Source: a phage
Strand: one strand, 5' to 3'
Sequence record: PZ019084.1
DNA: 64,000 nucleotides
The notes below the pieces were generated by a model. It was not told the DNA's origin, made no database searches, and saw nothing but the letters and a program-made list of their open reading frames with translations. Both the position numbers and the translations under genes were made by a program. Below are positions 44,375 through 47,317 of this stretch, one piece after another; position 1 is the stretch's first letter, and each line of letters starts with the position of its first letter.

Positions 44375-44938
44375 TTATTTATCTAGTTTAGTTATTATAG
44401 CTTCTGCGGCAGCTTTTAGCTTAGATGCGGTGTTAATACGATTTTTAATTTCAGTATACGCATCGCCAAGAACATCAAGGCTATCAGAATAAACACTTAC
44501 ACTATTGCGTTCGCTATTTGAAATAGAACCTTTAGTTTTACGATCAAAATCGGTGTACACGTCTTGAAGATCACGGGCTGCCTTCTTTGCATCATCCAAT
44601 GCGTCAAGAGCTTTATTCAAAGCATTAACGTATTTTTTAGTGTCAAACATATTCTTAGAAATTTTAACAGGTGCGCGTTCAGGAGTAGCTAATGCAGATT
44701 TAGGAACCTGAGCGCCAGATGCCAATTTCTTAGAAATTTTGAAAAACGCTTTATTGAATTTATTTTCTTGACTCATCGTAAAAGAACTATTATCGATGTT
44801 GTACATTTCAATAGCTTTAGCTTTCCACTTAAGAAAATTGCCGCGGTCTTTTGGGTCCAAGTGGAAGAATACTTTAGTAAGATCTGCTTCAGATGGTAAT
44901 TTTGCTGCTTCGGTTAAAAATTCGGCATAGGTTTTCAT
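44375..44938 (-). CDS. capsid-targeted internal-protein-like protein (187 aa)
   Basis: N-terminal MKTYAEFLTEA targeting sequence. Confidence 0.65.
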   Translation of the reverse strand: MKTYAEFLTEAAKLPSEADLTKVFFHLDPKDRGNFLKWKAKAIEMYNIDNSSFTMSQENKFNKAFFKISKKLASGAQVPKSALATPERAPVKISKNMFDTKKYVNALNKALDALDDAKKAARDLQDVYTDFDRKTKGSISNSERNSVSVYSDSLDVLGDAYTEIKNRINTASKLKAAAEAIITKLDK

Positions 44939-45033
44939 TTAAAATCCTTGAAATAATTTATCAGTTGGTTATTAATTATTTATTACTTTGTTATTATCCG
45001 TAACAGCATTCTCTATGTGATTCAAACTAAAAA

Positions 45034-45055
45034 GCCCCAACCTTTCGGTCGGGGC
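45034..45055 (-). terminator. intrinsic terminator (GNRA-loop hairpin plus U-tract)
   Basis: gccccaacc-tttc-ggtcggggc preceded on the plus strand by aaaaa (U-tract on the minus-strand RNA). Confidence 0.6.
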
Positions 45056-45063
45056 TAAGAATG

Positions 45064-45537
45064 TTATTTGATTTGTTTAGCAGACCAAATGCGGTCTTTA
45101 ATAATTTTTTGGATGTCTTCAACATACTCAAGAGAGTGAACATGTGGATTATCTTTGAAACTATAAGCACGGGCTAACTTTTGGCCTTCGGTTTTGATTA
45201 CTAAAAGCTCTTTAAGGATAGCTTCATATTTAGCGATAATTCCTTTAACGATATTTTTTTCTTGTGCAGCTTTAGGATCTGCTTTAGGAGCAGGTTTACC
45301 CGAAGCCTTTGCAAAAGCAGCACCAGTAGCAACTAAACTTTTCCAGGCCATACTAACCGCATTTCCCGTAAATCCTTCTGCTTTCATGTCGCGAGCAAAT
45401 TGGAATCGTGATTCGTCAGAAGCATCTTTATAGGAATATTTACCCGCTGCAATGGCTGCTTTTGCGACAGCTTGAATTTCGGTGCTAGATGCTTCATTTA
45501 ACACCGCTTCATTTAAAAATTGAGCATATGATTTCAT
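45064..45537 (-). CDS. capsid-targeted internal-protein-like protein (157 aa)
   Basis: N-terminal MKSYAQFLNEA targeting sequence; flanked by direct-repeat terminators. Confidence 0.65.
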   Translation of the reverse strand: MKSYAQFLNEAVLNEASSTEIQAVAKAAIAAGKYSYKDASDESRFQFARDMKAEGFTGNAVSMAWKSLVATGAAFAKASGKPAPKADPKAAQEKNIVKGIIAKYEAILKELLVIKTEGQKLARAYSFKDNPHVHSLEYVEDIQKIIKDRIWSAKQIK

Positions 45538-45592
45538 CTTATTTCCTGTTTTAATTCGTAGATTTAATATACTACTATATTTATACTAAAAA

Positions 45593-45614
45593 GCCCCGAC
45601 CTTTCGGTCGGGGC
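45593..45614 (-). terminator. intrinsic terminator (GNRA-loop hairpin plus U-tract)
   Basis: gccccgacc-tttc-ggtcggggc; direct repeat of the element at 45034-45055. Confidence 0.6.
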
Positions 45615-45926
45615 TAAGCCTTGCGGCAACCTTGTCGGGGTTCCACCTGCTAAGGCAAGTGTTTGTACGAAACGCCGGGATTCGAACCCGGTTATTAAGC
45701 AGTTGACGCTACTCAATATTTTTAAAAGGCCATATCTCGACCATATCCGAACGTTCCGTCAAAAACGCTACTCGGCTTACGGCAAAGATATTTCCTCGAA
45801 TCGATAATTCTGTGCGCCGTTTCTGCTGTGATGTAAGGGGACATTAACAGATCGTAAAGATTTGTTAATGCCAGTCCTTACCCAGGGAACATCAGTCCGA
45901 CGACTTACCGGTAGCGACCCGGTTTC
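45615..45926 (-). ncRNA. putative small stable RNA(s) co-transcribed with the tRNA cluster (candidate T4 RNA C/D-type species)
   Basis: About 310 nt with no ORF, GC-rich against an AT-rich genome, tRNA-like T-arm CCGGGTTCGAATCCCGG on the minus strand, terminated by the hairpin at 45593-45614. Confidence 0.4.
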
Positions 45927-46277
45927 TTAATATTCTTTTAAAGCATTAATCTGTTCACGACGTTTACGCCATAAATCAATTACTTCATACGCAGATTCAG
46001 CATTTCGAATTGGACGGCATTTATATAAAGACTTATGATTTTGATATTGTGTAGATAACGGAATTTTATCTAAAAGGTCTTTACGTTCAAAGTATTCGTA
46101 ACCATCTAAGCCAAATGAACGATTTTTGAGAAATTGCCAATGACCAAATTCGTTTTGAATATAAATATAATCCGCGTGTTGATAAAGTAAATTAATTTCA
46201 CGAAATGAGATATGTTTTTCATATTCATTGAAGTAAAATGTTAAATCATGAACTACTAAATAAACATTACCTTTCAT
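45927..46277 (-). CDS. hypothetical protein (116 aa)
   Basis: ORF between tRNA-Arg and the structured RNA region. Confidence 0.5.
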   Translation of the reverse strand: MKGNVYLVVHDLTFYFNEYEKHISFREINLLYQHADYIYIQNEFGHWQFLKNRSFGLDGYEYFERKDLLDKIPLSTQYQNHKSLYKCRPIRNAESAYEVIDLWRKRREQINALKEY

Positions 46278-46295: not shown

Positions 46296-46371
46296 TGGTC
46301 GAGGCAGTAGGGATCGAACCTACGACCTAGGACTTAGAAGGTCCTTGCTCTTCCTTCTGAGCTATGCCCCG
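46296..46371 (-). tRNA. tRNA-Arg: tRNA-Arg (anticodon UCU)
   Basis: Manual cloverleaf: acceptor CGGGGCA/TGCCTCG, anticodon loop CTTCTAA, T-loop TTCGATC, CCA encoded. Confidence 0.88.
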
Positions 46372-46375
46372 TAAT

Positions 46376-46451
46376 TGGGGTGACCGATGGGAGTCGAACC
46401 CATGACTACGAGAATCACAATCTCGAGTTCTACCAACTGAACTACGGCCAC
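46376..46451 (-). tRNA. tRNA-His: tRNA-His (anticodon GUG)
   Basis: Manual cloverleaf: acceptor GTGGCCG/CGGTCAC, anticodon loop TTGTGAT, CCA encoded; no encoded G-1. Confidence 0.8.
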
Positions 46452-46565
46452 ATTAATACCTACTCCAACAATCAAGATGTCTTCACACGAAATTAAGAGA
46501 AGAGTGATCAGTTCAACCCCTATAATCGCGTCAAGTAGATATTAATGTGACAGTTGTCACAAATT

Positions 46566-46640
46566 TGGCGGACGTGATAGGATTCGAACCTATAACCAAT
46601 CGCTTAACAGGCGATCGCTCTGCCATTGAGCTACACATCC
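46566..46640 (-). tRNA. tRNA-Asn: tRNA-Asn (anticodon GUU)
   Basis: Manual cloverleaf: acceptor GGATGTG/CACGTCC, anticodon loop CTGTTAA, T-loop TTCGAAT. Confidence 0.8.
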
Positions 46641-46644
46641 AAAT

Positions 46645-46731
46645 TGGTGGGGAGTGATGGAGTCGAACCACCCGAGTCGCAATGACAATGGATTTACAGT
46701 CCACACCGCTACCTCTACGGGATAACTCCCC
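46645..46731 (-). tRNA. tRNA-Tyr: tRNA-Tyr (anticodon GUA), long variable arm
   Basis: Acceptor GGGGAGT/ACTCCCC; anticodon arm GGACTGTAAATCC resembles E. coli tRNA-Tyr; 87 nt. Confidence 0.8.
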
Positions 46732-46744
46732 TTAATTCTTAATT

Positions 46745-46819
46745 TGGTGGCCCTGGGTGGAATTGAACCACCATCTGGCGATTATGAGTCGCTTGCTTGA
46801 ACCTTCCAGCTACAGGGCC
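46745..46819 (-). tRNA. tRNA-Ile: tRNA with anticodon CAU (Ile2/AUA-reading type, or Met)
   Basis: Acceptor GGCCCTG/CAGGGCC; anticodon arm GCGACTCATAATCGC as in E. coli tRNA-Ile2. Confidence 0.8.
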
Positions 46820-46820
46820 T

Positions 46821-46896
46821 TGGTGCTGATTGACGGAATCGAACCGCCGACCTTCTCATTACAAGTGAGTTGCTCTACCTACTGAGCTAAATCAGC
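46821..46896 (-). tRNA. tRNA-Thr: tRNA-Thr (anticodon UGU)
   Basis: Acceptor GCTGATT/AATCAGC; anticodon loop CTTGTAA. Confidence 0.85.
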
Positions 46897-46901
46897 AAAA
46901 C

Positions 46902-46991
46902 TGGCGGAGGCGATAGGATTTGAACCTATGAGTCGCCGGAGCGACTGCCGGTTTTCAAGACCGGTGCATTAAACCACTCTGCCACGCCTCC
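46902..46991 (-). tRNA. tRNA-Ser: tRNA-Ser (anticodon UGA), long variable arm
   Basis: Acceptor GGAGGCG/CGCCTCC; anticodon arm CCGGT-CTTGAAA-ACCGG; 90 nt. Confidence 0.85.
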
Positions 46992-46993
46992 AG

Positions 46994-47067
46994 TCTCCAT
47001 ACAAGGATTTGAACCTTGGACCTCCTGATCCCAAATCAGGCGCTCTACCAAACTGAGCTACACGGAG
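46994..47067 (-). tRNA. tRNA-Pro: tRNA-Pro (anticodon UGG)
   Basis: Anticodon arm CCTGA-TTTGGGA-TCAGG; CCA not encoded. Confidence 0.85.
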
Positions 47068-47077
47068 TAAATTAAAT

Positions 47078-47151
<74 letters not shown>

Positions 47152-47156
47152 AAATT

Positions 47157-47243
47157 TGGTGCGAGAAGTGGGACTCGAACCCACAAGGAAATCATTCCGC
47201 AGCATTTTAAGTGCTGTGCCTTTACCAATTTGACCATTCTCGC
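47157..47243 (-). tRNA. tRNA-Leu: tRNA-Leu (anticodon UAA), long variable arm
   Basis: Acceptor GCGAGAA/TTCTCGC; anticodon arm CAGCA-CTTAAAA-TGCTG; 87 nt. Confidence 0.85.
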
Positions 47244-47244
47244 G

Positions 47245-47317
47245 CTGGGAATAAAGGACTTGAACCTTTGCATCCTGGAATCAAAATCCAGTGCCTTACC
47301 AACTTGGCTAATTCCCA
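47245..47317 (-). tRNA. tRNA-Gln: tRNA-Gln (anticodon UUG)
   Basis: U1-A72 acceptor like E. coli tRNA-Gln; anticodon arm CTGGA-TTTTGAT-TCCAG. Confidence 0.85.

What the first reader, a model, noticed from the sequence alone, without database searches (positions are those of the whole stretch)
45615..45926. GC-rich structured non-coding region downstream of the tRNAs (putative stable RNAs)
About 310 nt with no ORF and clearly higher GC than the surrounding AT-rich genome, containing a perfect tRNA-like T-arm (CCGGGTTCGAATCCCGG) on the minus strand and ending at an intrinsic terminator. T4 encodes two small stable RNAs of unknown function next to its tRNA genes; this may be their counterpart.
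Basis: partly seen in the sequence, partly recalled or inferred. Interest (0 to 1): 0.45.

Follow-up and report, generated by a model that had tools for sequence, protein, structure and literature searches.

The report
T4 small stable RNAs rnaD, rnaC
This GC-rich gap is the T4-type phage's copy of two long-known small stable RNAs (rnaD and rnaC) at the end of its tRNA operon, so the locus is ordinary, although what the RNAs do is still unknown and rnaC turns out to be a tRNA-shaped molecule closed by a pairing between two of its loops.

Summary
The window is a Tequatrovirus, 99.5% identical here to phage ime09.

Region 45615-45926, read on the minus strand, is not coding. It has 47.8% GC against 35.2% for the window. 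It holds the homologues of T4 rnaD (species 2 RNA, about 45930-45811) and rnaC (species 1 RNA, about 45804-45664). A conserved 48-nt trailer and an intrinsic terminator (45615-45592) follow. Compared with T4, rnaC is 98.6% identical and rnaD 85%. GenBank records of T4, T2L and RB9 annotate both RNAs. Rfam has no family for either.

New here:
- Fifteen rnaC homologues from nine phage genera support a cloverleaf-like fold: a 7-bp acceptor stem, a T arm, a 70-nt arm in place of the D arm, and a 10-bp hairpin in place of the anticodon arm.
- The two hexaloops (UUGACG and CGUCAA) pair in all 15 sequences, with two independent compensatory changes.
- rnaC, rnaD and the trailer occur independently of each other in related phages.

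The papers I could search, up to 2025, give no function. My best inference is that rnaC is an RNase P-processed tRNA mimic that binds a tRNA-recognising factor. Verdict: already known, low to moderate interest.

The parts
45811..45930 (-). rnaD (species 2 RNA) homologue, about 120 nt. It has a 5' hairpin (45923-45907), an invariant basal stem (45904-45898 with about 45819-45812), a middle stem, and a variable apical hairpin (about 45883-45832, of the T4 type).
   Evidence: Boundaries were transferred from the T4, T2L and RB9 annotations through alignment A1. Identity to T4 is 85% overall, 92% in the 5' part and 91% in the 3' part. In 13 sequences 96.3% of cells are paired, against 32-49% when the partners are slid, and 6 pairs change on both sides.
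45805..45810 (-). Spacer (GAAUUA) between rnaD and rnaC. The last leader base before the predicted RNase P site is U45804, which T4's annotation counts as the first base of rnaC.
   Evidence: Alignment A1. The T2L annotation starts rnaC at the first acceptor base (C45803). The T4 annotation starts one base earlier.
45664..45804 (-). rnaC (species 1 RNA) homologue, about 140 nt, cloverleaf-like. Parts: acceptor stem 45803-45797 with 45674-45668; long arm 45796-45727; A-rich linker 45726-45719; 10-bp hairpin 45718-45693; T arm 45691-45675; 3' tail UACA 45667-45664.
   Evidence: It is 98.6% identical to T4 rnaC and 100% identical to RB9 rnaC. The minimum-energy fold is -50.2 kcal/mol, z = -3.6. 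Model R1 scores it 164 bits. In 15 homologues 91.4% of cells are paired against 38-47% when slid, and 29 pairs change on both sides.
45757..45762 (-). Hexaloop UUGACG at the tip of the rnaC long arm, one partner of the loop-loop (kissing) helix.
   Evidence: It is complementary to 45708-45703. It pairs in 15 of 15 sequences. The variants are UUGAUG/CAUCAA in Tegunavirus and UUGGCG/CGCCAA in Marfavirus.
45703..45708 (-). Hexaloop CGUCAA of the 10-bp hairpin in rnaC, the other partner of the kissing helix.
45616..45663 (-). Conserved 3' trailer (AACACUUGCCUUAGCAGGUGGAACCCCGACAAGGUUGCCGCAAGGCUU), predicted to form three small hairpins.
   Evidence: It is 94-100% identical in T4, T2L and RB9. It is kept directly after rnaD in phages that lack rnaC. 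The stems hardly vary, so the structure is not testable.
45587..45615 (-). Intrinsic terminator of the tRNA-rnaD-rnaC transcription unit: stem AGCCCCGACC/GGTCGGGGCT, loop GAAA, then UUUUU.
   Evidence: Terminator scan. Conserved in the homologues. A near-identical copy lies at 45056-45033.
46296..47317 (-). Upstream array of 11 tRNA genes on the same strand (Gln, Leu, Gly, Pro, Ser, Thr, Met, Tyr, Asn, His, Arg). This is the operon whose 3' end rnaD and rnaC form.
   Evidence: ARAGORN and Rfam. The order matches T2L and RB9.
45927..46277 (-). ORF of 116 aa between tRNA-Arg and rnaD, the counterpart of the T2L ORF 'trna.2'. Its stop codon abuts the rnaD 5' end. It is context only and not part of the RNAs.
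   Evidence: PHROG 3355, E = 1e-52. It is absent in T4 and RB9, where rnaD follows tRNA-Arg directly.

Best explanation
The region is the 3' end of a T-even phage tRNA operon. It encodes the two classical small stable RNAs, rnaD (species 2) and rnaC (species 1), followed by a conserved trailer and an intrinsic terminator.

Shown here:
- Homology and synteny with the annotated T4, T2L and RB9 genes.
- Covariation-supported folds for both RNAs.
- rnaC is a cloverleaf-type tRNA look-alike. It has a 7-bp acceptor stem stacked on a canonical T arm and a 4-nt 3' tail, UACA, where a tRNA has NCCA. The D arm is replaced by a 70-nt arm and the anticodon arm by a 10-bp hairpin. The two hexaloops are complementary, forming a kissing loop or, alternatively, a head-to-tail dimer contact.

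Inferred:
- The RNAs are made by read-through from the tRNA promoters.
- RNase P cuts at U45804|C45803 because rnaC presents a tRNA-like upper half. That cut also frees the 3' side of rnaD.
- The trailer is removed by 3' processing.
- The compact folds make both RNAs stable.

Function is inferred, with about 0.3 probability. rnaC would act in trans as a tRNA mimic. Its acceptor/T-arm half would bind a tRNA-recognising protein (a processing or modification enzyme, or a host tRNA-directed toxin), while the sequestered 'anticodon' loop keeps it out of decoding. rnaD, with an invariant base and an exchangeable apical hairpin, would be a separate host-interaction RNA.

The confidence given is for identity, structure and processing logic, not for the functional guess.
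For: Identity:
- 807 phage records match, and the annotated ones read rnaC and rnaD.
- Boundaries were mapped, and identities computed.
- The 11 tRNA genes upstream lie on the same strand, and the terminator follows.

rnaC structure:
- 15 sequences from Tequatrovirus, Kanagawavirus, Karamvirus, Moonvirus, Winklervirus, Tegunavirus, Gelderlandvirus, Marfavirus and IMG/VR contigs.
- 91.4% of cells are paired, against 82.0% when shuffled (0 of 500 shuffles reach it) and 38-47% when slid. 29 pairs change on both sides.
- In the acceptor stem, A-U at the third pair changes to G-C in other genera, and the two U.U mismatches become U-A and C-G in Tegunavirus.

Kissing helix:
- 6 of 6 positions pair in 15 of 15 sequences.
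- Two independent double changes occur. Slid controls give 17-50% paired.
- The complementarity stops exactly at the loop boundaries, and both flanking stems covary.

tRNA likeness:
- Model R1 aligns genuine tRNA-Gln genes end to end, with acceptor, anticodon arm and T arm in register (20-28 bits, E = 1e-4 to 2e-6).
- rnaC homologues sit inside tRNA arrays with tRNA-type spacers.
- Other annotators called it tRNA-OTHER or tRNA-Lys.
- The 3' tail is UACA in 13 of 15 sequences, UUCA in Tegunavirus and a true UCCA in Marfavirus.

rnaD structure.

Expression in T4: both are late-accumulating RNAs confirmed by northern blot (PMC9697503).

Hint of a host-related role: a convergent SNP in rnaD arose in all lines of a T4-like phage evolved on a semi-permissive host (PMC12685909).
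Against: - No transcript, end-mapping or protein-binding data exist for this phage. The RNase P, RNase III and 3'-trimming steps rest on my memory of 1970s-80s T4 work, which I could not retrieve.
- rnaC is not detected as a tRNA by ARAGORN or by the Rfam tRNA model. It lacks a D arm, a 7-nt anticodon loop and, in this phage, CCA.
- The T loop is not conserved in Kanagawavirus and Winklervirus (UGCAUGC and UGCAUCC). This weakens any role that depends on a canonical T loop.
- rnaC is precisely missing from Dhakavirus IME281 and several other T-even-like contigs. From established knowledge, the whole tRNA region is dispensable for T4 in laboratory hosts. Any function is therefore conditional.
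- The kissing helix rests on only two independent compensatory events.
- Nothing here identifies a binding partner.
Confidence: 0.85

Rival explanations
1. A cis-acting processing and stability cassette. rnaC would serve only as tRNA-like punctuation that recruits RNase P, and the structured rnaD, rnaC and trailer would block 3'-to-5' exonucleases and so protect the upstream tRNAs. The RNAs accumulate as by-products with no trans function.
For: - The position is at the 3' end of the tRNA operon, just before the terminator.
- rnaC has an RNase P-type acceptor/T-arm minihelix.
- The region is dispensable in some relatives.
Against: - In Moon, Melville, EnC15 and LC53, rnaC lies in the middle of the tRNA array, flanked on both sides by tRNAs that supply their own RNase P sites.
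- A punctuation mark would not need a 70-nt arm, invariant hexaloops kept complementary by compensatory change, or 97-100% sequence identity across hundreds of Tequatrovirus genomes.
Confidence: 0.2
2. Base-pairing regulatory small RNAs. rnaD, rnaC or the terminator-bearing trailer would pair with phage or host mRNAs, in the manner of Hfq- or ProQ-dependent sRNAs.
For: - The trailer plus terminator looks like a 3'-end-derived sRNA and is almost invariant.
- The apical hairpin of rnaD comes in three exchangeable versions, as a specificity module might.
- Two recent papers refer to them as regulatory RNAs, without giving data.
Against: - No complementarity longer than 12 nt to anything else in the 64-kb window, which is chance level.
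- No match in 5,426 E. coli genomes.
- Nearly all conserved bases of rnaC are paired within the molecule, and its two conserved loops pair with each other.
- A 2010 review states that no trans-acting sRNA has been characterised in T4.
Confidence: 0.12
3. Decaying tRNA pseudogenes and transcribed spacer, with no function at all.
For: - rnaC has tRNA-like parts but fails tRNA detectors.
- Recombination between T loops creates obvious junk hybrids in relatives, such as the AV115 tRNA-Asn/rnaC fusion.
- Loss in some lineages.
Against: - 29 base pairs show compensatory changes across nine genera.
- The loops are invariant and the kissing helix is maintained.
- rnaC is at least 99% identical in 493 of 751 records, while the neighbouring rnaD apex varies freely.
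Confidence: 0.04
4. A DNA-level element. The conserved T-arm DNA would be a target or recombination site for homing endonucleases such as SegB, and the stretch would be kept because of gene conversion rather than RNA function.
For: - SegB recognises the 11-bp T-arm motif of tRNA genes and drives conversion of this very region in T4 x T2L crosses (PMC2330249).
- rnaC carries that motif, GGTTCGAATCC.
- Module boundaries look like recombination joints.
Against: This explains the mosaic distribution but not the compensatory RNA base pairing, nor the conservation outside the 11-bp motif.
Confidence: 0.05
5. Small protein-coding genes, using the 40-aa ORF at 45844-45722 and the 50-aa ORF at 45716-45564 on the minus strand.
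For: Both ORFs are in the mechanical ORF list.
Against: - The start of the 40-aa ORF lies in the rnaD apical hairpin, which is replaced by unrelated sequence in T2L-type and Dhakavirus-type alleles.
- The 50-aa ORF runs through the T arm, the trailer and the terminator.
- The substitutions follow RNA pairing, not codons.
Confidence: 0.01

Closest known systems
Bacteriophage T4 rnaC (species 1 RNA, T4s001) and its annotated copies in T2L, RB3, RB9 and RB10
   Same: The sequence is 98.6-100% identical. Length, strand and position are the same: after rnaD and before the same trailer and terminator.
   Different: Two substitutions relative to T4, both of which keep pairing (C-G for U.G, and G.U for A-U). 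The operon context is T2L-like, with an ORF between tRNA-Arg and rnaD and no segB.
Bacteriophage T4 rnaD (species 2 RNA, T4s002)
   Same: The 5' hairpin, basal stem and middle stem are conserved, and the apical hairpin is of the T4 type. It lies immediately upstream of rnaC.
   Different: Identity is 85% overall, and the apical hairpin is only 75% identical. Here it follows an ORF rather than tRNA-Arg, so its 5' end cannot be made by tRNA-Arg 3' processing as I infer it is in T4.
Canonical tRNA (Rfam RF00005)
   Same: rnaC has a four-way junction, a 7-bp acceptor stem and a 5-bp T stem with the 7-nt loop UUCGAAU. It has a 4-nt 3' overhang, lies in a tRNA array, and aligns in register with tRNA-Gln.
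   Different: A 70-nt arm replaces the D arm, and a 10-bp stem with a 6-nt loop replaces the anticodon arm. That loop is sequestered by the other arm. The tail is UACA, not NCCA. rnaC scores below the thresholds of ARAGORN and Rfam.
tRNA-like domains of other non-tRNA RNAs: the tmRNA tRNA-like domain, bacterial Y RNAs (YrlA), plant-virus 3' tRNA-like structures, and mascRNA. These comparisons come from my own knowledge.
   Same: In each, an acceptor/T-arm mimic lets tRNA enzymes (RNase P, CCA-adding enzyme, modification enzymes) act on an RNA that is not a decoding tRNA.
   Different: There is no tag reading frame and no ARAGORN tmRNA call. The only Rfam YrlA match in the neighbourhood falls on the real tRNAs at 46346-46408, at 17.7 bits against a threshold of 69. 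In YrlA the tRNA-like module is internal, whereas in rnaC the RNA's own ends form the acceptor stem. None of these families is known to me to lock the body with a kissing loop between the D-arm and anticodon-arm equivalents.

Membership tests
T4 rnaC (species 1 RNA) | Sequence homology to the annotated T4 gene over its full length | tested here: met
   139 of 141 positions match T4, and 141 of 141 match RB9. 728 phage records cover at least 80% of it.
T4 rnaC (species 1 RNA) | Position at the distal end of the tRNA gene cluster, on the same strand, after rnaD and before the operon terminator | tested here: met
T4 rnaC (species 1 RNA) | Accumulates as a discrete stable RNA of about 140 nt in infected cells | not testable with these tools
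   Shown for T4 itself by northern blot (PMC9697503). There are no data for this phage.
T4 rnaC (species 1 RNA) | Conserved secondary structure | tested here: met
   91.4% of cells are paired and 29 pairs show compensatory change in 15 sequences. Controls give 38-47%.
T4 rnaD (species 2 RNA) | Sequence homology to the annotated T4 gene | tested here: met
   85% overall. The 5' part is 92% and the 3' part 91% identical. The apical hairpin is 75% identical and of the same allele type as T4.
T4 rnaD (species 2 RNA) | Position immediately upstream of rnaC, at the end of the tRNA cluster | tested here: met
   A 6-nt spacer separates it from rnaC, as in T4, T2L and RB9. As in T2L, a 116-aa ORF separates it from tRNA-Arg.
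T4 rnaD (species 2 RNA) | Stable transcript of about 120 nt | not testable with these tools
   Only reported for T4.
Canonical tRNA | Reaches the Rfam tRNA gathering score or is called by ARAGORN | tested here: not met
   There is no tRNA call in 45586-45930. The best clan hit is tRNA-Sec at 16.6 bits against a threshold of 47, E = 3.9.
Canonical tRNA | 7-bp acceptor stem stacked on a 5-bp T stem with a 7-nt T loop | tested here: met
   Acceptor stem 45803-45797 with 45674-45668, and T arm 45691-45675. Both covary.
Canonical tRNA | D arm with D loop, and a 5-bp anticodon stem with a 7-nt loop | tested here: not met
   A 70-nt arm and a 10-bp stem with a 6-nt loop stand in their places.
Canonical tRNA | 3' NCCA end, either encoded or added | tested here: inconclusive
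   The window encodes UACA. The Marfavirus homologue encodes UCCA and the Tegunavirus homologue UUCA. Whether CCA is added after transcription cannot be tested here.
tmRNA | tRNA-like domain together with a tag-peptide reading frame, detected by ARAGORN or Rfam | tested here: not met
   No tmRNA was reported in the window.
Hfq-type base-pairing sRNA (for the trailer and terminator, or for rnaD) | A seed region complementary to target mRNAs | tested here: inconclusive
   Nothing above chance within the 64-kb window, and no match in E. coli genomes. The rest of the phage genome and imperfect pairing were not searched.

The most novel reading that the evidence does not exclude
rnaC is a purpose-built tRNA decoy. 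Its exposed acceptor/T-arm half would be offered to a tRNA-recognising host factor, for example an acceptor- or elbow-directed tRNA toxin of an anti-phage system, or a tRNA maturation enzyme the phage needs to divert. The kissing loop between the arms that replace the D and anticodon arms would hide the anticodon-like loop and make the body rigid. rnaD, with its exchangeable apical hairpin, would be a second RNA engaged in an arms race with the host. This would make the pair the first RNA-only counter-defence or host-takeover factors of T-even phages, and would answer a question that has been open for about 50 years.
Probability: 0.2. Interest if true: 0.7.

Novelty: already known. Interest (0 to 1): 0.28.

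Why it matters
As a locus it adds nothing. rnaC and rnaD have been known since the 1970s and are annotated in T4, T2L and the RB phages.

Its residual value is that their function is still unknown. Reviews and papers from 2010, 2022 and 2025 all say so. This analysis gives concrete handles on the question:
- A covariation-backed cloverleaf and kissing-loop model for rnaC, with exact bases to mutate.
- A calibrated covariance model for a family that is absent from Rfam.
- The finding that rnaC occurs in at least nine T4-like genera, always within tRNA arrays.
- Natural knock-outs: phages that keep rnaD and the trailer but lack rnaC.

If rnaC proves to be a tRNA mimic used in phage-host conflict, it would extend the current picture of phage tRNAs as counter-defence tools to non-decoding RNAs.

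Tried and rejected
- Rfam, at gathering thresholds and with permissive E-values. Nothing was found for the region except terminator-driven noise and a sub-threshold tRNA-Sec hit.
- A loose IMG/VR pattern built on the two loop motifs. It returned 120 mostly random loci. The covariance model kept only one of them, L084.
- A second IMG/VR pattern. It added one divergent copy, L167.
- The single metagenome scan. It returned only Tequatrovirus-like copies, so it gave no further test of the kissing helix.
- BLAST of the whole unit against 5,426 E. coli genomes. No match, so there is no host-derived template or mimic visible at the sequence level.
- A search for antisense targets in the window. Only chance 11-12-mers and the duplicated terminator turned up.
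- The idea that the trailer's CCCCGAC competes with the terminator's 5' arm as an anti-terminator. I rejected it because in phages whose terminator stem differs (GGCCCUUCC...GGUUGGGCC) the trailer stays the same and could not pair with it.
- The idea that rnaD is also tRNA-like. I rejected it because its 5' hairpin and basal stem would place the 3' end at the helix junction, and no tRNA-clan hit appears at E of 10 or less.
- Trailer structure. There is too little variation to test it.
- The old T4 processing papers and the 2003 T4 genome review could not be retrieved. Statements about RNase P, RNase III and the dispensability of the region therefore rest on my own knowledge.

Full report
**What is there.** The window is a T4-type phage. 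The queried stretch is 99.5% identical to Escherichia phage ime09 and matches 807 phage records, almost all of them Tequatrovirus. On the minus strand, eleven tRNA genes run from 47317 to 46296. They are followed by a 116-aa ORF (46277-45927) and then by the flagged stretch.

The stretch is 47.8% GC in a 35.2% GC window, a value reached by only 0.6% of windows of equal size. It has no ORF of 60 aa or more. It carries CCGGGTTCGAATCCCGG at 45691-45675. It ends in a strong intrinsic terminator at 45615-45592 plus a U tract. It folds far better than shuffled sequence, with z = -7.6 for the whole stretch, -3.6 for the rnaC half and -3.9 for the rnaD half.

**Identity.** Where matching records are annotated, the features under the match are 'rnaC: species I RNA' and 'rnaD: species II RNA' (T2L AJ880101, RB9 KM606998, RB3, RB10 and others). 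T4 itself (NC_000866) has rnaD and rnaC directly after tRNA-Arg.

Aligning the window with T4, T2L and RB9 and transferring the boundaries gives:
- rnaD at about 45930-45811
- a 6-nt spacer
- rnaC at about 45804-45664
- a 48-nt trailer at 45663-45616
- the terminator

Identity to T4 is 98.6% for rnaC and 85% for rnaD. Within rnaD, the 5' and 3' parts are 92% and 91% identical and the apical hairpin 75%. The trailer is 94% identical.

The operon layout is that of T2L, with the ORF 'trna.2' between tRNA-Arg and rnaD and no segB. Rfam has no family for either RNA.

**rnaC structure.** The minimum-energy fold has five elements:
- A 7-bp stem formed by the two ends of the RNA.
- A canonical T arm directly adjacent to it.
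- A 10-bp hairpin.
- An A-rich 8-nt linker.
- A long, interrupted arm of about 70 nt.

I collected homologues outside Tequatrovirus by BLAST and by pattern scans. They are Kanagawavirus IME523, Karamvirus myPSH1140 and EnC15, Moonvirus Moon, Tegunavirus fHe-Yen9-01, Gelderlandvirus Melville, Winklervirus LC53, Marfavirus PWKp18 and several IMG/VR contigs.

On 15 distinct sequences the structure is 91.4% paired. Column shuffles give 82.0% (0 of 500 reach the observed value) and sliding the partners gives 38-47%. Of the 54 pairs, 29 change on both sides. In the acceptor stem, A-U changes to G-C at the third pair. The two U.U mismatches of most genera become U-A and C-G in Tegunavirus.

**The loop-loop pairing.** The hexaloop at the tip of the long arm (UUGACG, 45762-45757) is the exact complement of the hexaloop of the 10-bp hairpin (CGUCAA, 45708-45703).
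- All six positions pair in all 15 sequences.
- Tegunavirus has UUGAUG with CAUCAA, and Marfavirus has UUGGCG with CGCCAA. These are two independent double changes at different positions.
- Slid controls give 17-50% paired.
- The complementarity ends at the loop boundaries, and both closing stems covary strongly. A nested alternative is therefore excluded.

The data fit an intramolecular kissing loop or a head-to-tail dimer, and covariation cannot tell these apart. I do not know of a published description of this contact, and I could not check the older literature.

**tRNA likeness.** A covariance model built from the rnaC alignment (R1) scores the window copy at 164 bits. It also aligns genuine tRNA-Gln genes of related phages from end to end, at 20-28 bits and E = 1e-4 to 2e-6. 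In those alignments:
- acceptor aligns on acceptor
- the 10-bp hairpin aligns on the anticodon arm
- T arm aligns on T arm
- the long arm falls where the D arm is

rnaC homologues always lie in or at the end of tRNA arrays, with tRNA-type spacers. Examples are between tRNA-Met and tRNA-Gly in Moon, between tRNA-Trp and tRNA-Gly in Melville and EnC15, and between tRNA-Phe and tRNA-Trp in LC53.

After the acceptor stem comes a 4-nt tail: UACA in 13 of 15 sequences, UUCA in Tegunavirus and a true UCCA in Marfavirus.

Even so, rnaC fails as a tRNA. ARAGORN and the Rfam tRNA model do not call it. It has no D arm and no 7-nt anticodon loop. The T loop is replaced in two genera. It works like the upper half of a tRNA, but it is not a tRNA.

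**rnaD structure.** Nineteen distinct sequences from GenBank loci and IMG/VR show four elements:
- A 5' hairpin, where the closing A-U changes to G-C.
- An invariant basal stem.
- A middle stem with a U-A to A-U swap, six sequences each way.
- An apical hairpin that exists in three versions which cannot be aligned with each other. The window carries the T4 type. All three versions are hairpins, and they are combined mosaically with the flanks.

The alignable part is 96.3% paired, against 32-49% when slid.

**Modularity.**
- Dhakavirus IME281 and four other contigs join rnaD directly to the trailer, with rnaC precisely absent.
- One contig has rnaD but neither rnaC nor the trailer.
- Mosigvirus AV115 has the 5' part of tRNA-Asn fused, at the shared T-loop sequence, to the 3' end of rnaC plus the trailer.
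- Genera outside Tequatrovirus and Dhakavirus have rnaC without rnaD.

The three pieces are therefore independent modules, and T-loop recombination reshapes the cluster. This fits the SegB homing work on this region. The trailer is almost invariant wherever it occurs, and no annotation I saw accounts for it.

**How it probably works.**

Shown here: homology, synteny, the folds and the terminator.

Inferred:
- Transcription reads through from the tRNA promoters.
- RNase P cuts at U45804|C45803 because rnaC offers a 12-bp acceptor/T-arm stack with U at position -1. The same cut releases the 3' side of rnaD.
- The trailer is removed by 3' processing.
- The compact folds explain the stability of both RNAs.

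For T4, late accumulation of both RNAs is documented. The RNase P and RNase III steps come from my memory of 1970s-80s work.

Function is unknown according to the papers I could search, up to November 2025. My best guess is that rnaC is a trans-acting tRNA mimic that binds a tRNA-recognising factor through its upper half, while its anticodon-like loop is sequestered. I put this at about 0.3. The sub-case that it is a decoy in phage-host conflict I put at about 0.2.

Two things hint at a host-related role but prove nothing. One is the convergent rnaD SNP in a T4-like phage adapting to ECOR34. The other is the exchangeable rnaD apex.

Three findings argue against a simple antisense role:
- There are no targets in the window.
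- There is no match in E. coli genomes.
- Nearly all conserved bases are paired within the molecule.

Against a purely cis 'punctuation' role, rnaC sits between tRNAs in several genera and carries far more conserved structure than punctuation would need.

**Verdict.** This is a correct identification of a known feature, so its novelty is 'already known' and its interest is low to moderate. The added value is the structural model, the covariance model, the taxonomic range and the natural deletions. Together these make the old question of function more approachable.

Noticed in passing
window 45616-45663 (minus strand): The 48-nt trailer between rnaC and the terminator is as conserved as rnaC itself, at 94-100% in T4, T2L and RB9. 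It is kept directly after rnaD in phages that lack rnaC. Together with the terminator it would resemble a 3'-end-derived small RNA. No annotation I saw mentions it.
   Followed up: partly
window 45020-45059 and 45579-45618; ORFs 45064-45537 and 44375-44938 (minus strand): The terminator after rnaC is repeated at 93% identity after the next ORF. A late-promoter-like TATAAATA lies at 45585-45578. The two downstream ORFs (157 and 187 aa) both belong to PHROG 2280 and share the N-terminus MK(S/T)YA(Q/E)FL(N/T)EA. From memory, this resembles the capsid-targeting sequence of T4 internal proteins, and the layout resembles the shuffled promoter/stem-loop cassettes described for T4-type phages.
   Followed up: partly
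window 46546-46561, in the 114-nt spacer between tRNA-His (46376-46451) and tRNA-Asn (46566-46640): A perfect palindrome, TGTGACAGTTGTCACA, which has the form TGTGA-N6-TCACA of the core of the E. coli CRP-site consensus. RB9 has only 4 nt between tRNA-Asn and tRNA-Arg, so tRNA-His and this spacer are an insertion.
   Followed up: no
L152 1153-1224 (Mosigvirus AV115, OR352945): A gene annotated and called as tRNA-Asn is a chimera. Its tRNA-Asn 5' part is joined at GGTTCGAATCC to the 3' acceptor strand, tail and trailer of rnaC, so its acceptor strands cannot pair. It is probably a recombination product and a pseudo-tRNA.
   Followed up: partly
window about 45832-45883 (rnaD apical hairpin); L001, L139, L145, L146: The rnaD apex exists in three unrelated hairpin versions (T4 type, T2L type and Dhakavirus type). 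They are combined mosaically with different flanking variants, which suggests module exchange or diversifying selection.
   Followed up: partly
window 45765-45773 and 45706-45714 (minus strand): The 9-mer GAGUAGCGU occurs twice in rnaC, each time forming the 5' strand that leads into one of the two kissing hexaloops. The loop of the rnaD 5' hairpin (GUCGCUA) is complementary to part of it (CGCUAC with GUAGCG). I could not assess its significance.
   Followed up: no
window 45927-46277 (minus strand): The 116-aa ORF (PHROG 3355, the counterpart of T2L trna.2) is only 28% GC, and its stop codon abuts the rnaD 5' end. It is absent from T4 and RB9, so in this phage rnaD cannot get its 5' end from 3' processing of tRNA-Arg.
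   Followed up: no
records NC_054920 (G9062) and MK327945 (G4500): Public annotations label part of rnaC as 'tRNA-OTHER' or 'tRNA-Lys', and many records place hypothetical-protein CDSs over rnaC and rnaD. This is a recurrent mis-annotation that an Rfam family would prevent.
   Followed up: no
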